From UHGV virus genome UHGV-1464328: a stretch of 33,516 nt of DNA; one strand, given 5' to 3'. The stretch comes from a virus. Position 1 is the first letter of the stretch; each line of letters opens with the position of its first letter. The position numbers were made by a program, and so were the translations under genes. The notes below the pieces were generated by a model. It saw nothing but the letters and a program-made list of their open reading frames with translations. It was not told the origin of the DNA and did no database searches. Below, piece after piece: positions 11,330 to 26,906 of this stretch.

Positions 11330-11623
11330 ATGATAGGAGATATCACTGTATATCTTGCGATTGCTTCACTTGTGGGAGGATTAATAACATGGGGAATATC
11401 TGAGATAAGAAGAAAGTACTCTAATAAAGAAGACCTCGAAAGACGTATCACAGCTATCGAGTCGAAATTAGATATTAATAGTACTAACAGTAAGAATTAT
11501 CTTGAGCGTCTTAATGAAATTAAAGATGCATTAGTAGATATTCGTACAGAAATTCGGACTATTGAAGAAAGGACCCGTGGAAATGAAATTCAACTAGCAA
11601 GAATAGAAGGTCGTAATGATTAA
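11330..11623 (+). CDS. Membrane-anchored coiled-coil protein, 97 aa (N-terminal TM segment plus a heptad-rich C-terminus). Candidate i-spanin or holin-regulator type protein.
   Basis: YLAIASLVGGLITWGI looks like a TM segment, then EDLERRITAIESKL...LERLNEIKDALVDIRTEIRTIEER. Confidence 0.5.
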   Translation: MIGDITVYLAIASLVGGLITWGISEIRRKYSNKEDLERRITAIESKLDINSTNSKNYLERLNEIKDALVDIRTEIRTIEERTRGNEIQLARIEGRND

Positions 11624-12098
11624 AAGAAAAGACATTCCTGATTACAAACAAGAGTTATATAAAAGACAGAACAAACGATGTGCTCTAACTGGTGTTCTAA
11701 TTGAAGACGTTAATAAAGCACATCTTGACCATGACCATAAACTTGATGGACCCGGTGCAGGAAGATGCAGGGGTCTTCTGTTAGGTCAAGCGAATGTTCT
11801 TGAAGGGCGTATCAAGCATCAGTTTGAACGCTCTGGTCTTGCCGGGAAAATCGGCTATATAGATTTTCTTAAAAATCTTGTTTGTTATCTGGAGGCTGAT
11901 TATACAGCTAATCCTAGACACCCTCAGTTAATCCCAGACCTCATTAAACGGTTCAGCCGTATGAACCTTAATACAATGAGACAAAAGCTCTTAGAGTGTC
12001 ATCAGGAAGCTTCTGGGACAAAGCAAGAACTAACTCATAGGTATAAGAAATACCTAAGGTCAAAATATGAAAATAAACCTCAAGGAGTGTGCGTCTAA
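11616..12098 (+). CDS. Recombination endonuclease VII (T4 gp49-like Holliday-junction resolvase), 160 aa.
   Basis: HLDHDHKLDGPGAGRCRGLLLGQANVLEGRIKHQFERSGL matches T4 EndoVII HLDHDHELNGPKAGKVRGLL...KHKFNRSGL. Overlaps the previous gene by 8 nt. Confidence 0.85.
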   Translation: MIKRKDIPDYKQELYKRQNKRCALTGVLIEDVNKAHLDHDHKLDGPGAGRCRGLLLGQANVLEGRIKHQFERSGLAGKIGYIDFLKNLVCYLEADYTANPRHPQLIPDLIKRFSRMNLNTMRQKLLECHQEASGTKQELTHRYKKYLRSKYENKPQGVCV

Positions 12099-15254: not shown

Positions 15255-15354
15255 ATGATACTATTACCTGAAGAACAGTTTCATTTTGACAAAAAAATAT
15301 TTCAATCAATCTCAATAACTTAACGGCTTATGACTGTATGCCTGTACAGTTCTG

Positions 15355-15375
15355 GTGTACGCGTGTGCACACACG
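15355..15375. other. 21-nt perfectly alternating purine-pyrimidine tract (gtgtacgcgtgtgcacacacg), Z-DNA-prone. It contains the 10-bp palindrome GTGTGCACAC.
   Basis: Seen directly in the recombinase upstream intergenic region. Confidence 0.6.
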
Positions 15376-15424
15376 GATTATATTAAAACTCCGAGCAAAA
15401 CTTACTGTTTATCAAGGAGTTAAC

Positions 15425-15595
15425 ATGGAAAACCGCTTTGAAGATATTTTATTTGATACTGTGAACTCGATCGTTGAGCACACAAGGATAGGGCGTACTA
15501 AAGCTGTTACTAAGTTGTACAGAAACGGGAAGTTGGCAGCGGTGAGAACCATCACTGCGGAAGGTACTACATATGCTTTTAAAGGAGATAACTGA
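15425..15595 (+). CDS. Small hypothetical protein, 56 aa (MENRFEDILFD...).
   Basis: ATG has RBS AAGGAG. The track ORF from 15338 lacks an RBS. Its stop overlaps the next start (ATGA). Confidence 0.5.
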   Translation: MENRFEDILFDTVNSIVEHTRIGRTKAVTKLYRNGKLAAVRTITAEGTTYAFKGDN

Positions 15596-17283: not shown

Positions 17284-17769
17284 ATGACATTATATGAAAT
17301 GCTCCGCTTTGATGAAGGCGAGAAACTACAAGTTTATAAAGACACCGAAGGATATTGGACTATTGGTATTGGTCATTTATTGACTAAGAACCCATCTAAG
17401 GAACAAGCCATCGCTTGTCTTGATAAAGAACTAAAACGAGTTACTTCTGGCGTTATCTCAAAATCAGAGTCAGAACAGCTGTTCAATCAGGACACCTCTA
17501 GGGCACTCCAGGACATTTCCCGCTCAGAATTGAGTTCCATATACATTCAAATGAATGGACCTCGTAGGGCTGCTCTGGTGAACATGGTGTTCCAGTTAGG
17601 GCTCACTGGTGTGTTGAAGTTCACTAAGATGGTTAAGTACCTCAAAGCACAAAATTATGAAGCAGCTGCTGATGAGTCATTGGATAGTCGTTGGGCAAGA
17701 CAGACACCTAATCGTGCTCGTCGTGTATCTGAGGTTATTCGGACAGGAACCTTTAGTTCTTACAGTTGA
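17284..17769 (+). CDS. Endolysin, T4 lysozyme (GH24) family, 161 aa.
   Basis: [35 protein letters not shown] matches T4 e [35 protein letters not shown]. Glu11, Asp20 and Thr26 are conserved. C-terminal NRARRV matches NRAKRV. Confidence 0.95.
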   Translation: [161 protein letters not shown]

Positions 17770-22045: not shown

Positions 22046-22078
22046 AAGCTTTAATCAGAGACACTCTGATTAAAGCTT
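22046..22078. repeat. Perfect 15-bp inverted repeat, AAGCTTTAATCAGAG-aca-CTCTGATTAAAGCTT. Candidate protein-binding palindrome, possibly a cos- or terminase-associated site.
   Basis: Seen directly, about 210 nt upstream of the Nu1-like gene. Confidence 0.7.
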
Positions 22079-22228
22079 ATGTCGCAGGAAATGCATAATT
22101 ATTTTGGGGCACGATAAGAAGCGGGATGTTTCGGGACCGCATCCTTTAGTTGACCTGTAAAATTTTAATTCCATTGCAATTCAAGTTGGACTCCGGGGTT
22201 TACAGTCTCGTGAAATCATAGACACACG

Positions 22229-22287: not shown

Positions 22288-22812
22288 ATGGCTCGAAAAA
22301 AATATGTCTCGATGGCCGATATGGCTCGTCGTTATGGTTATACATTTAACGCGATTAAAGCATGGCGCGCCGAGGGTCTACCGTACTCTGAAAGTCCTAA
22401 CGGAATTCCTGAAGATGAAGGTACGCAGTGGATTATCAAAAATAAAATTGAACCGCTTCGTAATACTTCAGTTAAAGAGGAGATGGATCTTGAAAAACTC
22501 CGAGAACAAAAAGCTAAAGCTGACCTAGCTCAGTACGCTGCTCAAGAAAAATCAGGCGAGTTAATCTCAACCGATTATGTTCAATCAGAGCTTAATAAGT
22601 TCTGTGCTAACCTAAAAGATACGTTAAGACTTATTCCTTCAAAACACGCGATTGATTTGATTGAACACGCTGACTCTGTTGATGACCTCAAACAACGACT
22701 GCGTGAAATCATCGATGAAGAACTGCTAAAGGTATCAGAGCTGTTTGAGCCTGAACTTGAAAATGATGAAGAGTCAATGGTGATATCACCATTGACTTTT
22801 GATGACAACTAA
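22288..22812 (+). CDS. Small terminase subunit candidate, lambda Nu1-like N-terminal winged HTH, 174 aa.
   Basis: MADMARRYGYTFNAIKAWRAEGLP matches lambda Nu1 LADIFGASIRTIQNWQEQGMP. Coiled-coil middle and acidic C-terminus. RBS GGAG. Confidence 0.5.
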   Translation: MARKKYVSMADMARRYGYTFNAIKAWRAEGLPYSESPNGIPEDEGTQWIIKNKIEPLRNTSVKEEMDLEKLREQKAKADLAQYAAQEKSGELISTDYVQSELNKFCANLKDTLRLIPSKHAIDLIEHADSVDDLKQRLREIIDEELLKVSELFEPELENDEESMVISPLTFDDN

Positions 22813-25441: not shown

Positions 25442-25471
25442 TATTATCTCCAGTCAATTTTTTGACATAAG

Positions 25472-25500
25472 CTTTAAAAAAGAACCTCTCCGAAGAGAGG
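25472..25500 (-). terminator. Minus-strand rho-independent terminator cctctc-UUCG-gagagg followed by UUCUUUUUU.
   Basis: Reverse complement of aaaaaagaacctctccgaagagagg. It lies upstream of the HTH gene, so it terminates transcripts coming from the control region. Confidence 0.6.
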
Positions 25501-25569
25501 GGTTATACAACACATAGTGTTAATAGAGTAATTATATCAAAGATATCTTAAAGCAAATAACCTTTAATA

Positions 25570-25715
25570 TAAAATCTATATTTCATTATTTTAAAAATGA
25601 AACGTTTATTTTAGCGGTTTTGGCGTTTTATTTCATTTTCGGATACAGGTACCATTTATTTCGGCAAATGTTTCAGTCGTTTTCCTAAATGAAATGTTTT
25701 ATTTCATTTTCATCA
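25570..25715. repeat. Cluster of TTTCATT / AATGAAA repeats, including inverted pairs and TTTTATTTCATTTTC x2.
   Basis: tttcattattttaaaaatgaaa; ttttatttcattttc (25629 and 25697); aaatgaaatgttttatttcattttc. Confidence 0.65.
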
Positions 25716-25733
25716 GCAGTACTGATTACAGAT

Positions 25734-25743
25734 ATATTTATTA
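25734..25743 (-). promoter_or_regulatory. Late-like motif on the minus strand (GTAATAAATATATC), with no ORF downstream.
   Basis: Plus-strand atatttatta. Points leftward into the repeat region and the 25472 terminator. Confidence 0.4.
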
Positions 25744-25799
25744 CACTGATTTTTCGTCTTATCGTTAGAAATTGATTTGTTCATTAATTAATCACTCTG

Positions 25800-25815
25800 C
25801 CCGGCCGAAGCCGGG
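25800..25815. other. GC hairpin cccggc-CGAA-gccggg (UUCG loop on the minus strand) in the non-coding region.
   Basis: Seen directly. Confidence 0.5.
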
Positions 25816-25973
25816 TCTTATGAGCTTAACAACAGGAGAACTACCGACGAACGGTGAACACAACCACTAAGGATTACCATAAAGGGCTCTCCGCCAAAAG
25901 AACCCTTGAGTTAATACCTATGGAATCTCAATCTTTAACAACGCTAAGGACCACCACAATCCTTGATACAATT

Positions 25974-25983
25974 ATATTTATTA
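25974..25983 (-). promoter_or_regulatory. Second minus-strand late-like motif (CCGTAATAAATATAAT) in the non-coding region.
   Basis: Plus-strand atatttatta. The extended match resembles the 31505 copy. Confidence 0.4.
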
Positions 25984-26065
25984 CGGTGTTTAGCACCCAT
26001 TTTAGATGCACTCAATCAAAACGAATAAGTGTCACGAGGTTAAGATGCAACTTCTGTCATTAGTT

Positions 26066-26235
26066 TTGACATCAGAAATTGCATTATATTTTGTGCAAGT
26101 TGTTGAGTTTTAAACACATTTCATAACTATGGGATTCAGATTATACAAATTTGACATCTCAAATACCATAGAAATTGCATAGTGCAATTTGTCCAGGAAA
26201 ATGCAATTTCTGAACTGAAAAATGCAATTTGTCCA
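26066..26235. repeat. Iteron/operator array. Five copies of AAATTGCAT / ATGCAATTT in both orientations, including the palindrome AAATTGCAtagTGCAATTT. TGCAATTTGTCCA occurs twice. TTTGACATC occurs twice.
   Basis: 26076-84, 26172-80, 26182-90, 26201-09, 26222-30. TTGACA at 26066 and 26151. Confidence 0.7.
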
Positions 26236-26398
26236 TCAAAAACAGCTACTAAGTTATTGAGATTAAAACAATTGTTGTCCCTTTAAATATAGTCTAACCT
26301 TTGTTTTCAAGTAGACTTTCAACAATGAACCACAGAAAAGTGGTCCATTATTCCAAGTAACTTTCAATACAAACTTCTAACGAAGTTCCACCAAAAAG

Positions 26399-26514
26399 AT
26401 TGTGAAACTCCGCCCGAAGGGCGGATAGACTAATAGTTTTATAAACCAATGGTGAAAAGCCAGTACAGAAACAAAGACTATCGTCGAGGCTAAAGCCTCT
26501 CCGAGTTTCACAAT
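26399..26514. other. About 116-nt element closed by a 12-bp perfect long-range inverted repeat (ATTGTGAAACTC ... GAGTTTCACAAT). It encloses two hairpins (ccgccc-gaag-ggcgg and gaggct-aa-agcctc). Candidate structured RNA or cruciform DNA site.
   Basis: Seen directly. Confidence 0.5.
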
Positions 26515-26555
26515 TGTTCTTTAACTATCTTTGTTTGAAGTACTACCAGAATTAT

Positions 26556-26627
26556 CCAGATTAAATCTGGTACCAGACTAGTTCCAGTCTTTATATTTCC
26601 ATTCCAAACCAGTTAAATCAATCTGGA
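26556..26627. repeat. CCAG-box repeats. CCAGATTAAATCTGG (7-bp arm palindrome) and CCAGTTAAATCAATCTGG about 53 bp apart. Nine CCAG in about 120 bp.
   Basis: Seen directly, about 300 bp upstream of the HNH-terminase operon. Confidence 0.6.
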
Positions 26628-26738
26628 TGCATTCCAGAACATCTAGTACAACAACCAGTTTCTATCTTGTTTCTCCACGAGCAAGCTCGTTCCGAAACGA
26701 CGCTTCGCGTCTACTTGTTATTTGCTATAAAAACTTGT

Positions 26739-26747
26739 TGGTATAAT
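26739..26747 (+). promoter_or_regulatory. Extended -10 promoter TGGTATAAT (no good -35), directed toward the HNH/terminase genes.
   Basis: Perfect TATAAT with a TGn extension. Confidence 0.4.
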
Positions 26748-26866
26748 GGTTTTAGTCCTTCCAATTAATACTAATCAGACTGGTAATAGATAGACCAGAT
26801 AGATTAGCCAACCAGATTGTGCTTTAGCACTACTTCTAGTTAAAGCAATTCCGTTCATTTCCAACG

Positions 26867-26876
26867 TAATAAATAC
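26867..26876 (+). promoter_or_regulatory. Late-promoter-like motif TAATAAATAC, 30 nt upstream of the HNH ATG at 26907.
   Basis: Family consensus. Confidence 0.5.
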
Positions 26877-26906
26877 CTGTATCAAATCAACTAACAAACA
26901 ACAGGT

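What the first reader, a model, noticed from the sequence alone, without database searches (positions are those of the whole stretch)
26399..26514. 116-nt element closed by a 12-bp long-range inverted repeat enclosing two GC hairpins (three-way-junction fold)
ATTGTGAAACTC (26399-26410) pairs perfectly with GAGTTTCACAAT (26503-26514). Inside are ccgccc-GAAG-ggcgg and gaggct-AA-agcctc. Such nested complementarity is not expected by chance in AT-rich DNA. It could be a structured RNA (riboregulator or RNase target), or a cruciform/packaging (cos or pac) or origin element just upstream of the HNH-terminase operon.
Basis: seen in the sequence. Interest (0 to 1): 0.55.

Follow-up and report, generated by a model that had tools for sequence, protein, structure and literature searches.

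The report
Paired opposed terminator hairpins, prophage control region
The 116-base fold is real, but it is most likely two back-to-back transcription stop signals inside a long regulatory gap of a Klebsiella/Enterobacter prophage, and not a special RNA or a DNA-packaging site.

Summary
The 12-bp inverted repeat (26399-26410 / 26503-26514) and the two GC hairpins are there, and the segment folds far better than shuffles (z -6.3). A 12-bp repeat alone is not rare (0.73 expected per window).

Relatives in Klebsiella, Raoultella and Enterobacter prophages argue against a selected three-way junction. Every change in the arms breaks a pair, and none is compensated. What is kept is the layout: an A-rich tract, GC hairpin(s), a roughly 60-nt core, GC hairpin(s), then a T-rich tract. 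The hairpin sequences themselves are interchangeable. In Enterobacter-type relatives the two ends score as ordinary intrinsic terminators, minus-strand on the left and plus-strand on the right.

I read the element as two opposed terminators. In this lineage they share an 11-nt spacer (AGTTTCACAAT), and that spacer creates the long-range helix.

A cos site here is unlikely. The small-terminase gene lies 4 kb away and has its own conserved GC-rich island upstream.

The element sits in a 1.4-kb control region with iterons, a CCAG repeat array and three promoters of phage-T4 "middle" geometry. That last point is the more interesting side observation. The function is inferred; no transcript or DNA-end data exist.

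The parts
26391..26398 (-). A-rich tract CCAAAAAG. On the minus strand it reads CTTTTTGG, the T-run that directly follows the closing stem / hairpin 1.
   Evidence: It has 5 T in 8, which meets the tail rule of the terminator scan. The homologous tract in L241/L034 (GATCTTTGTG) is scored as a terminator tail.
26399..26410 (.). Left arm ATTGTGAAACTC. On the minus strand it is the 11-12-nt spacer (G)AGTTTCACAAT between hairpin 1 and its T-run.
   Evidence: It varies without compensation in L018 (2-nt deletion) and L245 (T to A).
26410..26424 (.). Hairpin 1, CCGCCC-GAA-GGGCGG. It reads C-UUC-G on the minus strand.
   Evidence: The outer pair C-G becomes A-T in L018. It is replaced by GTGGGC-GTA-GCCCAC plus TGGCC-GCA-GGCCA in the Enterobacter type.
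26425..26480 (.). Conserved core. It contains TT(T/C)TATAAAC and AAGCCAGTA, the first copy of the CCAG repeat array.
   Evidence: Only 2 substitutions in the 92 nt between the arms versus L239, while the overall intergenic-region identity is about 84%. Almost invariant in 16 Klebsiella/Raoultella copies.
26481..26504 (+). Hairpin 2. The inner part is GAGGC-TAAA-GCCTC (26486-99). It can be extended by TCG/CGA across a TC/TC internal loop.
   Evidence: (I15). The same architecture occurs with other sequences in L245, L241 and DCP80: outer stem TCGT/ACGA or TCAT/ATGA.
26503..26514 (.). Right arm GAGTTTCACAAT, the spacer between hairpin 2 and its T-run.
   Evidence: It reads GAGTTaCACAAc in L239, GAGTTaCACAAT in L245 and ...CAAc in L256, with the left arm unchanged.
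26515..26522 (+). T-run TGTTCTTT, directly after the closing stem on the plus strand. Sequence conservation ends here.
   Evidence: 6 T in 8. Searches show that the sequence downstream is full of indels and substitutions.
26045..26230 (.). Context: iteron array ATGCAATTT in both orientations. It includes a 14-bp inverted pair at 26072-85 / 26200-13.
   Evidence: All 4 exact copies in the window lie here.
26460..26815 (+). Context: array of (A/T)CCAG(A/T) repeats that begins inside the element core.
   Evidence: 13 copies per 400 nt against a window mean of 3.0, the densest region in the window.
26678..26721 (+). Context: hairpin CGAGCAAGCTCG, then terminator-like GACGC-TTC-GCGTC plus TACTTGTTAT. 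These are the same interchangeable hairpin units that form the right end of the element in relatives.
26720..26747 (+). Context: rightward promoter of the HNH-TerL operon, ATTTGCTATA-N12-TATAAT. This is T4 middle-promoter geometry, with TGn before the -10 element.
   Evidence: consensus taken from PMC2988021.

Best explanation
The 116-nt segment is a pair of oppositely oriented intrinsic (factor-independent) terminator units placed about 60 nt apart.

On the right side, hairpin 2 plus GAGUUUCACAAU plus UGUUCUUU stops rightward (+ strand) RNA. On the left side, read on the minus strand, hairpin 1 plus AGUUUCACAAU plus CUUUUUGG stops leftward RNA. The same spacer sequence follows both hairpins, so the two spacers are reverse complements of each other on one strand. 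That gives the perfect 12-bp long-range helix.

On either strand the whole segment can fold into a Y-shaped stem that ends exactly at a U-run. The module insulates the two halves of a 1.4-kb regulatory intergenic region from each other. The left half holds the iterons and the leftward early promoters. The right half holds the CCAG repeat array and the rightward packaging/head-gene promoter. RNAs entering from either side would have overlapping, complementary 3' ends.

Shown: the anatomy, the conservation pattern, and terminator-like scores at the homologous ends in relatives. Inferred: that transcription enters the element, that it stops there, and which promoters feed it.
For: 1. Every lineage keeps the same layout with different sequences: A-rich tract, GC hairpin(s), core, GC hairpin(s), T-rich tract.

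2. In L241 the scan finds only two terminator-like sites in the whole 1.15-kb intergenic region, and they are the two ends of the element-equivalent. They are minus-strand GTGGGCTACGCCCAC+GATCTTTGTG on the left and plus-strand GACGCTTCGCGTC+TATCTTTGTT on the right (expected 0.5 by chance). L034 has the same left site. In L244 the right-end hairpin is GGTGC-TTC-GCACC+TTACTTGTTT. Relative to L241 this is a doubly compensated version.

3. The hairpin-plus-tail units are interchangeable. The unit at the right end of the element in L241 sits at 26699-26711 in the window, where the scan also flags it.

4. In the window the closing stem abuts TGTTCTTT on the + strand and CTTTTTGG on the - strand.

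5. A long-range helix still forms in L245, L232 and L241, but from different bases. It is essentially the A-tract pairing with the T-tract. Two opposed U-tracts would produce exactly this.

6. The arm changes are never compensated. The helix as such is therefore not what is selected.

7. Sequence conservation stops at the end of the right T-run.

8. In the Enterobacter-type relatives and L245 a promoter on the minus strand points at the element. It lies 260-325 nt from the left terminator, which gives a defined leftward unit.

9. The same region has an undoubted minus-strand terminator at 25500-25475, so hairpin terminators are part of its logic.
Against: - In the window and L245 lineages neither hairpin alone passes the simple terminator rule, because 11-12 nt separate the stem from the T-run.
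- A 116-nt branched structure is an unusual terminator and might fold too slowly to act.
- No convincing promoter was found that sends RNA into the element in the window itself. There are only two TTGACA hexamers near the iterons, without a good -10, and a 2-mismatch candidate on the minus strand at 26575-26551.
- Simple terminators do not explain why the roughly 60-nt core is so conserved. They also do not explain why GAGTTTCAC is kept next to hairpins even in DCP80, whose TerL is only 50% identical.
- There are no transcript data.
Confidence: 0.42

Rival explanations
1. The arms are inverted binding sites on double-stranded DNA for a phage protein: a regulator, or the small terminase as part of a cosB-like recognition region. 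The hairpins and the helix would be incidental. The protein would bridge two sites about 10 helical turns apart, next to the CCAG repeat array.
For: The arm sequence is kept although pairing is not: GTGAAACTC is identical in the window, L239, L245 and L232. GAGTTTCAC also recurs beside hairpins in L034, L241 and DCP80. The arm-to-arm distance is 104 bp here and 94 bp in L245, a difference of one helical turn. A second long-range inverted pair, made of iterons, lies 128 bp apart nearby. The element is flanked by two binding-site arrays and lies upstream of a GpA-type TerL.
Against: The motif occurs nowhere else in the genome. Enterobacter-type relatives lack one or both arms at this position yet keep the hairpin and tract layout. 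The spacing between the motif and the neighbouring promoter box is not constant. No binding protein has been identified; the adjacent 286-aa protein has no recognisable fold.
Confidence: 0.15
2. It is a discrete structured RNA: a Y-shaped small RNA, or the 3' domain of a roughly 300-nt non-coding RNA covering the conserved block 26205-26504. It would act as a riboregulator or as an RNase III/E substrate.
For: The fold is very stable on both strands. The block 26205-26504 is about 97% conserved against L239, versus about 84% for the whole intergenic region. It ends at the right arm. The unpaired core is strongly conserved. Hairpins 1 and 2 each show a few double changes.
Against: The closing helix has no compensatory change: 0 of 12 pairs, and 8 pairs lose pairing. 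The middle stem is broken in L017, L239 and L018. Rfam gives nothing, even at E <= 10. No promoter was found. The fold is equally good on both strands, so nothing points to one transcript.
Confidence: 0.15
3. It is a DNA-level element: the cohesive-end/packaging cleavage site, or a cruciform or single-strand hairpin signal of a replication origin.
For: It lies in a long gene-free region with iterons, upstream of TerL. Many of the hairpins have C-GNA-G triloops. From general knowledge, these are very stable as single-stranded DNA. No recognisable replication gene was found, so an origin served by host or helper functions is conceivable.
Against: TerS is 4 kb away. It has its own GC-rich island upstream, conserved in distant relatives, which is the usual cos position. 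The element has no GC-rich, dyad-symmetric nick site. No DnaA box occurs in the region. The arms are not conserved in Enterobacter-type relatives. The integrated copies in chromosomes carry the region intact, so it is not the attachment site.
Confidence: 0.08
4. It is a small mobile element (MITE) or a type I toxin gene: a 44-aa hydrophobic minus-strand ORF at 26377-26511 whose mRNA has paired ends.
For: 12-bp terminal inverted repeats around 116 nt. A hydrophobic 44-codon ORF spans the element exactly.
Against: There is a single copy in the genome and no target duplication. The element is present at the same locus in all relatives, with graded divergence. The ORF has a stop at codon 2 (GTG TAA) in both L239 and L245.
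Confidence: 0.02

Closest known systems
Bidirectional / convergent intrinsic (Rho-independent) terminators of enterobacteria and their phages
   Same: GC-rich stem-loops flanked by an A-tract on one side and a T-tract on the other, so that each strand reads hairpin plus U-run. The flanks can pair with each other. The hairpin sequence is free to change as long as it pairs. The homologous ends in relatives pass a standard terminator scan.
   Different: There are two separate hairpins about 60 nt apart, with a conserved core between them, and not one shared hairpin. Each terminator acts only after the polymerase has crossed the core. In this lineage an identical 11-nt spacer separates each hairpin from its U-run and creates a 12-bp long-range helix. 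No activity has been shown.
Lambda cos (cosQ-cosN-cosB) of GpA-type terminase phages
   Same: It lies upstream of a GpA-family large terminase and next to an array of short repeats that could be recognition sites.
   Different: The small-terminase gene is elsewhere and has its own conserved GC-rich island. There is no cosN-like nick site. The arms are not conserved across the family. A promoter lies between the element and the terminase genes.
Lambda nut / HK022 put antitermination RNA sites
   Same: Read inward, each arm plus hairpin is a conserved linear motif (UGUGAAACUC) followed by a GC hairpin. It sits in a region with several terminators, including a leader terminator before the early genes.
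   Different: The hairpin loops differ (GAA, UUUA, CUUG). There is no boxA/boxB similarity and no N- or Q-like gene. The two sites face each other and do not each follow a promoter.
hok/sok- and fst-type type I toxin-antitoxin loci
   Same: A small hydrophobic ORF, end-to-end pairing of the putative mRNA, and convergent terminators.
   Different: The ORF is broken in two relatives. No antisense promoter or repeat elements are present.

Membership tests
Intrinsic (Rho-independent) terminator | GC-rich stem-loop | tested here: met
   Hairpin 1 has 6 bp, all G-C. Hairpin 2 has 5-6 bp and can be extended. Hairpins are present at the same positions in all lineages.
Intrinsic (Rho-independent) terminator | U-rich tract starting within about 2 nt of the stem | tested here: inconclusive
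   Not met by either hairpin alone in the window or L245. Met if the 12-bp closing helix is taken as the stem: TGTTCTTT on + and CTTTTTGG on -. Met by the homologous ends in L241, L034 and L244.
Intrinsic (Rho-independent) terminator | RNA 3' ends map to the U-tract and termination occurs in vitro | not testable with these tools
   No transcript data are available.
Structured non-coding RNA (three-way junction) | Helices supported by compensatory changes | tested here: not met
   Closing helix: 0 of 12 pairs compensated, and 8 depart only by unpaired cells. Middle helix: 0 compensated. Only hairpin 2 shows 2 double changes.
Structured non-coding RNA (three-way junction) | Match to a described RNA family | tested here: not met
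   Rfam 15 gives nothing at gathering thresholds. At E <= 10 there are only chance-level hits. No tRNA or tmRNA.
cos site of a GpA-type terminase phage | Located immediately upstream of the small-terminase gene | tested here: not met
   The TerS homologue is at 22288-22812, 3.6 kb to the left and separated by a leftward operon.
cos site of a GpA-type terminase phage | Conserved nick region between relatives | tested here: not met
   The arms and interior are not conserved in the Enterobacter type. A GC-rich island upstream of TerS is conserved.
cos site of a GpA-type terminase phage | Physical genome ends map to the site | not testable with these tools
   No virion-DNA reads are available. The window looks like a circularly permuted assembly: its composition shows no host-like flank.
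Miniature inverted-repeat transposable element | Multiple copies and a target-site duplication | tested here: not met
   The arm motif occurs only at this locus. The flanks are AAAAAG / TGTTCT.
Type I toxin | Conserved small hydrophobic ORF | tested here: not met
   There is a stop at codon 2 in L239 and L245.

The most novel reading that the evidence does not exclude
The element is the shared, overlapping 3' end of two convergent non-coding transcripts. It works as a Y-shaped bidirectional terminator that also produces a double-stranded RNA overlap. It sits in a control region whose promoters have phage-T4 middle (MotA/AsiA-type) geometry. The 33-kb integrated element encodes no recognisable MotA or AsiA. 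It could therefore be a prophage-like element whose early and packaging operons are switched on by a superinfecting T4-like phage. The terminator pair would then gate which way that helper-induced transcription spreads.
Probability: 0.1. Interest if true: 0.7.

Novelty: new variant of a known kind. Interest (0 to 1): 0.3.

Why it matters
By itself it matters little. It would be an unusual geometry of a very common signal: two opposed terminators tied together by a shared spacer. It is also a cautionary case, because a striking nested fold need not be a selected RNA structure.

It matters more as a landmark in a poorly understood regulatory region of an AT-rich (38% GC) prophage family in Klebsiella, Raoultella and Enterobacter. 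That region combines two binding-site arrays, a leader terminator before the early genes, and T4-middle-type promoters. It deserves transcript mapping.

Tried and rejected
- Rfam at gathering thresholds and at E <= 10: nothing. ARAGORN: nothing.
- BLAST of the region against phage genomes (near and distant), complete E. coli genomes and plasmids: no match.
- Two genome-contig scans with TerL: nothing.
- Two short DNA patterns scanned in viral contigs returned only chance hits or already known loci. The single metagenome scan returned one already known variant.
- Type I toxin / small ORF: rejected because of a stop at codon 2 in two relatives.
- MITE: rejected because the element is single-copy.
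- DnaA boxes: none in the region.
- CRP-like TGTGA/TCACA half-sites: the spacing is wrong by about 90 bp.
- The 'cluster B' relatives (L019-L026) also have a long conserved gap, but nothing alignable to the element and no terminator pair.
- The neighbouring 286-aa protein could not be named. Pfam, NCBIfam, PHROGs and PDB sequence searches were empty. An AlphaFold model (pLDDT 71) had no Foldseek match with E < 0.03.
- Literature searches found nothing on this family.

Full report
**Observation**

ATTGTGAAACTC (26399-26410) and GAGTTTCACAAT (26503-26514) are a perfect 12-bp inverted repeat. Inside lie CCGCCC-GAA-GGGCGG (26410-24) and GAGGC-TAAA-GCCTC (26486-99).

The segment folds into a branched structure closed by the 12-bp helix:
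- RNA, + strand: -41.4 kcal/mol, z -6.3.
- RNA, - strand: -41.5 kcal/mol, z -4.9.
- DNA: -20.3 kcal/mol, z -4.6.

A perfect 12-bp inverted repeat within 200 nt is expected 0.73 times per window, and 41% of Markov shuffles have one. The repeat alone is therefore weak evidence. The combination with nested hairpins is not chance.

**Context**

The element lies in a 1.47-kb ORF-free gap (25442-26906).
- To the left is a leftward operon: a 57-aa HTH protein, a 286-aa protein and a zinc-ribbon protein.
- To the right is a rightward operon: an HNH_3 endonuclease, a 45-aa peptide, a GpA-type large terminase, the portal and a protease-capsid fusion.

The window is an AT-rich (about 38% GC) element of roughly 33 kb. 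It carries a large serine integrase and tail genes, and its composition shows no host-like flank. Identical or near-identical copies sit in Klebsiella and Raoultella chromosomes. A more distant type sits in Enterobacter hormaechei/cloacae.

The small-terminase homologue is not next to TerL. It is at 22288-22812.

**Relatives and the closing helix**

I collected these versions of the region:
- Sixteen near-identical Klebsiella/Raoultella copies.
- L239, whose intergenic region is about 84% identical.
- L018, whose left half is divergent.
- L245/L246, a moderately diverged version.
- L232, a natural chimera with a window-like left half and an Enterobacter-like right half.
- The Enterobacter types L230/L034, L241 and L244.

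The arms change as follows. The right arm is GAGTTaCACAAc in L239, GAGTTaCACAAT in L245 and ...CAAc in L256. The left arm has a 2-nt deletion in L018 and a T-to-A change in L245. None of these changes is matched on the other arm.

On an alignment of six distinct sequences, the 12 pairs of the closing helix split as follows: 4 invariant, 8 that depart only by losing the pair, and 0 compensated. The middle helix is also uncompensated. The three-way junction as such is therefore not under selection. Rfam has no match.

**What is conserved**

Every lineage keeps the same order of parts: an A-rich tract, one or two GC hairpins, a core of about 60 nt (TTCTATAAAC ... AGCCAGTA), one or two GC hairpins, and a T-rich tract. 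The hairpin sequences differ between lineages.
- Hairpin 1 is replaced by GTGGGC-GTA-GCCCAC plus TGGCC-GCA-GGCCA.
- Hairpin 2 is replaced by GAGC-AA-GCTC, by GCAGC-AA-GCTGC plus GACGC-TAC-GCGTC, or by GGTGC-TTC-GCACC.

When each version is folded, a long-range helix still appears in L245, L232 and L241. It is built from other bases, essentially the A-tract pairing with the T-tract.

In L241 the terminator scan finds just two sites in the whole gap, and they are the two ends of the element-equivalent:
- Minus strand, left end: GTGGGCTACGCCCAC + GATCTTTGTG.
- Plus strand, right end: GACGCTTCGCGTC + TATCTTTGTT (0.5 expected by chance).

L034 and L244 give matching results. The right-end unit of L241 is homologous to the unit at 26699-26711 in the window, which the scan also flags. 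These hairpin-plus-tail units therefore behave as interchangeable modules.

**Interpretation**

I read the element as two opposed intrinsic terminators separated by a conserved core. In the window/L245 lineage the same spacer, (G)AGTTTCACAAT, sits between each hairpin and its T-run. Two inverted copies of one spacer necessarily form a perfect long-range helix. That helix ends exactly at TGTTCTTT on the + strand and at CTTTTTGG on the - strand. Sequence conservation also stops at the right T-run.

In the Enterobacter-type relatives and L245 a minus-strand promoter lies 260-325 nt to the right and points at the left terminator. This defines a short leftward non-coding unit.

The weaknesses are real:
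- In the window lineage neither hairpin alone passes the terminator rule.
- No good promoter feeding the element was found in the window.
- The conserved core and the persistence of GAGTTTCAC next to hairpins, even in phage DCP80, are unexplained.
- I give the terminator-pair reading a confidence of about 0.4.

**Rival readings**

*cos.* In relatives with only 40% TerL identity, TerS directly precedes TerL. A GC-rich island (CCGCGTAGTTTCGCCGCACCC) lies upstream of TerS there. The window has a similar island (GCGGGATGTTTCGGGACCGCATCC) about 150 nt upstream of its own TerS. That is where cos is expected, so cos at 26.4 kb is unlikely. Only end-mapping can settle it.

*Protein-binding arms.* This reading is supported by conservation of sequence without conservation of pairing, and by arm spacings of 104 and 94 bp. 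However, the arms are absent at this position in Enterobacter-type relatives.

*Toxin ORF.* A 44-aa hydrophobic minus-strand ORF spans the element, but it has a stop at codon 2 in L239 and L245.

*Mobile element.* The motif is single-copy.

**Side observations**

The gap is a dense control region. It contains:
- An ATGCAATTT iteron array.
- The highest CCAG density in the window, starting inside the element core.
- A canonical minus-strand terminator (25500-25475) between a promoter and the first early gene. A compensated version exists in a relative whose 286-aa protein is 41% identical.
- A second conserved structured block at 25790-25915.

The pattern TGCT-N15-TATAAT occurs exactly three times in 33.5 kb, and all three copies are in this gap. 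The expected number is 0.12, and 0 of 100 shuffles reached 3. This pattern is the geometry of phage-T4 middle promoters: a MotA box (a/t)(a/t)(a/t)TGCTTtA placed 12 +/- 1 bp from the -10 element (PMC2988021). Relatives have the same promoters. The copy nearest TerL is inverted in L245, the Enterobacter type and DCP80.

No MotA or AsiA homologue was detected in the window. The window does encode a T4-type endonuclease VII. The only GenBank phage with a related TerL (50% identity) is the record 'Escherichia phage DCP80'. This record also carries T4-like genes, with duplicated rIIA and ndd, so it is probably a chimeric assembly.

Whether this prophage family responds to T4-like helpers is pure inference. 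It is nonetheless the most interesting lead from this work.

**Verdict**

The three-way-junction RNA and cos readings are not supported. The element is most likely an unusual pairing of ordinary terminators. Interest is low to moderate for the element itself, and higher for the surrounding control region.

Noticed in passing
window 25531-25555 (-), 25971-25995 (-), 26723-26747 (+): Three promoters have phage-T4 middle-promoter geometry: a MotA-box-like (A/T)3TGCT(T/A)(T/A)A placed 12 nt from TATAAT. These are the only exact TGCT-N15-TATAAT matches in the window (0.12 expected). They are conserved in relatives and in DCP80. No MotA or AsiA homologue was detected in the element.
   Followed up: partly
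window 26720-26750 versus L245 2180-2204, L229 3707-3731, L240 803-827 and 951-975: The promoter nearest HNH/TerL points rightward in the window, L239 and L244. The homologous sequence is on the opposite strand, pointing at the element, in L245, the Enterobacter type and DCP80.
   Followed up: partly
window 25475-25500 (-): A canonical terminator, CCTCTC-TTCG-GAGAGG + TTCTTTTTTA, lies between the 25555 promoter and the ATG (25441) of the first early gene. The early operon therefore needs read-through. L254 has a compensated version, GAGGAC-TTCG-GTCCTC + TTCTTTTTCA.
   Followed up: partly
window 25790-25915: This is a second conserved structured block. It contains a compensated hairpin, CCCGGC-CGAA-GCCGGG versus CCGGAC-CGAA-GTCCGG in the Enterobacter type, which reads C(UUCG)G on the minus strand. 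It lies about 50 nt downstream of the 25995 minus-strand promoter, so it may be a small leftward RNA. In the Enterobacter type it precedes a 72-aa gene that is absent from the window.
   Followed up: partly
window 26045-26230: An iteron array of ATGCAATTT has 6 copies in both orientations, three of them 21 bp apart. It includes a 14-bp inverted pair at 26072-85 / 26200-13. Relatives have different iterons at the same place: TGTGCAACGTT in the Enterobacter type and GCATCGAT in cluster B.
   Followed up: partly
window 26460-26815: An array of about 13 (A/T)CCAG(A/T) repeats gives the highest CCAG density in the window. Relatives have ACCAGTA repeats at the same place. The binding protein is unknown.
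   Followed up: partly
window 22288-22812 and 22100-22150: The small-terminase gene is separated from TerL by 4.7 kb: a leftward operon, the long gap and HNH. A GC-rich island upstream of TerS, with a core shared with distant relatives, is the likely cos site. A hairpin with a 15-bp stem lies at 22046-22081.
   Followed up: partly
window 11616-12098; 15338-15595; 17284-17769: T4-type genes occur in a lambda-like structural module: endonuclease VII (phrog_423, 1e-34), a weak Cef match, and a gp5/e-type lysozyme.
   Followed up: no
L240 / L248 / L250 (GenBank PQ671644, 'Escherichia phage DCP80'): This record is filed as a T4-like phage. Its first roughly 25 kb are a relative of this element, with a GpA-type TerL 50% identical to the window's. 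The rest is T4-like, with rIIA and ndd each present twice. It is probably a chimeric assembly.
   Followed up: partly
L236 4665-5408: One Enterobacter copy has an extra NUMOD3 homing-endonuclease gene inserted between HNH and TerL. This suggests that the HNH_3 gene here is also a homing endonuclease and not a packaging factor.
   Followed up: no
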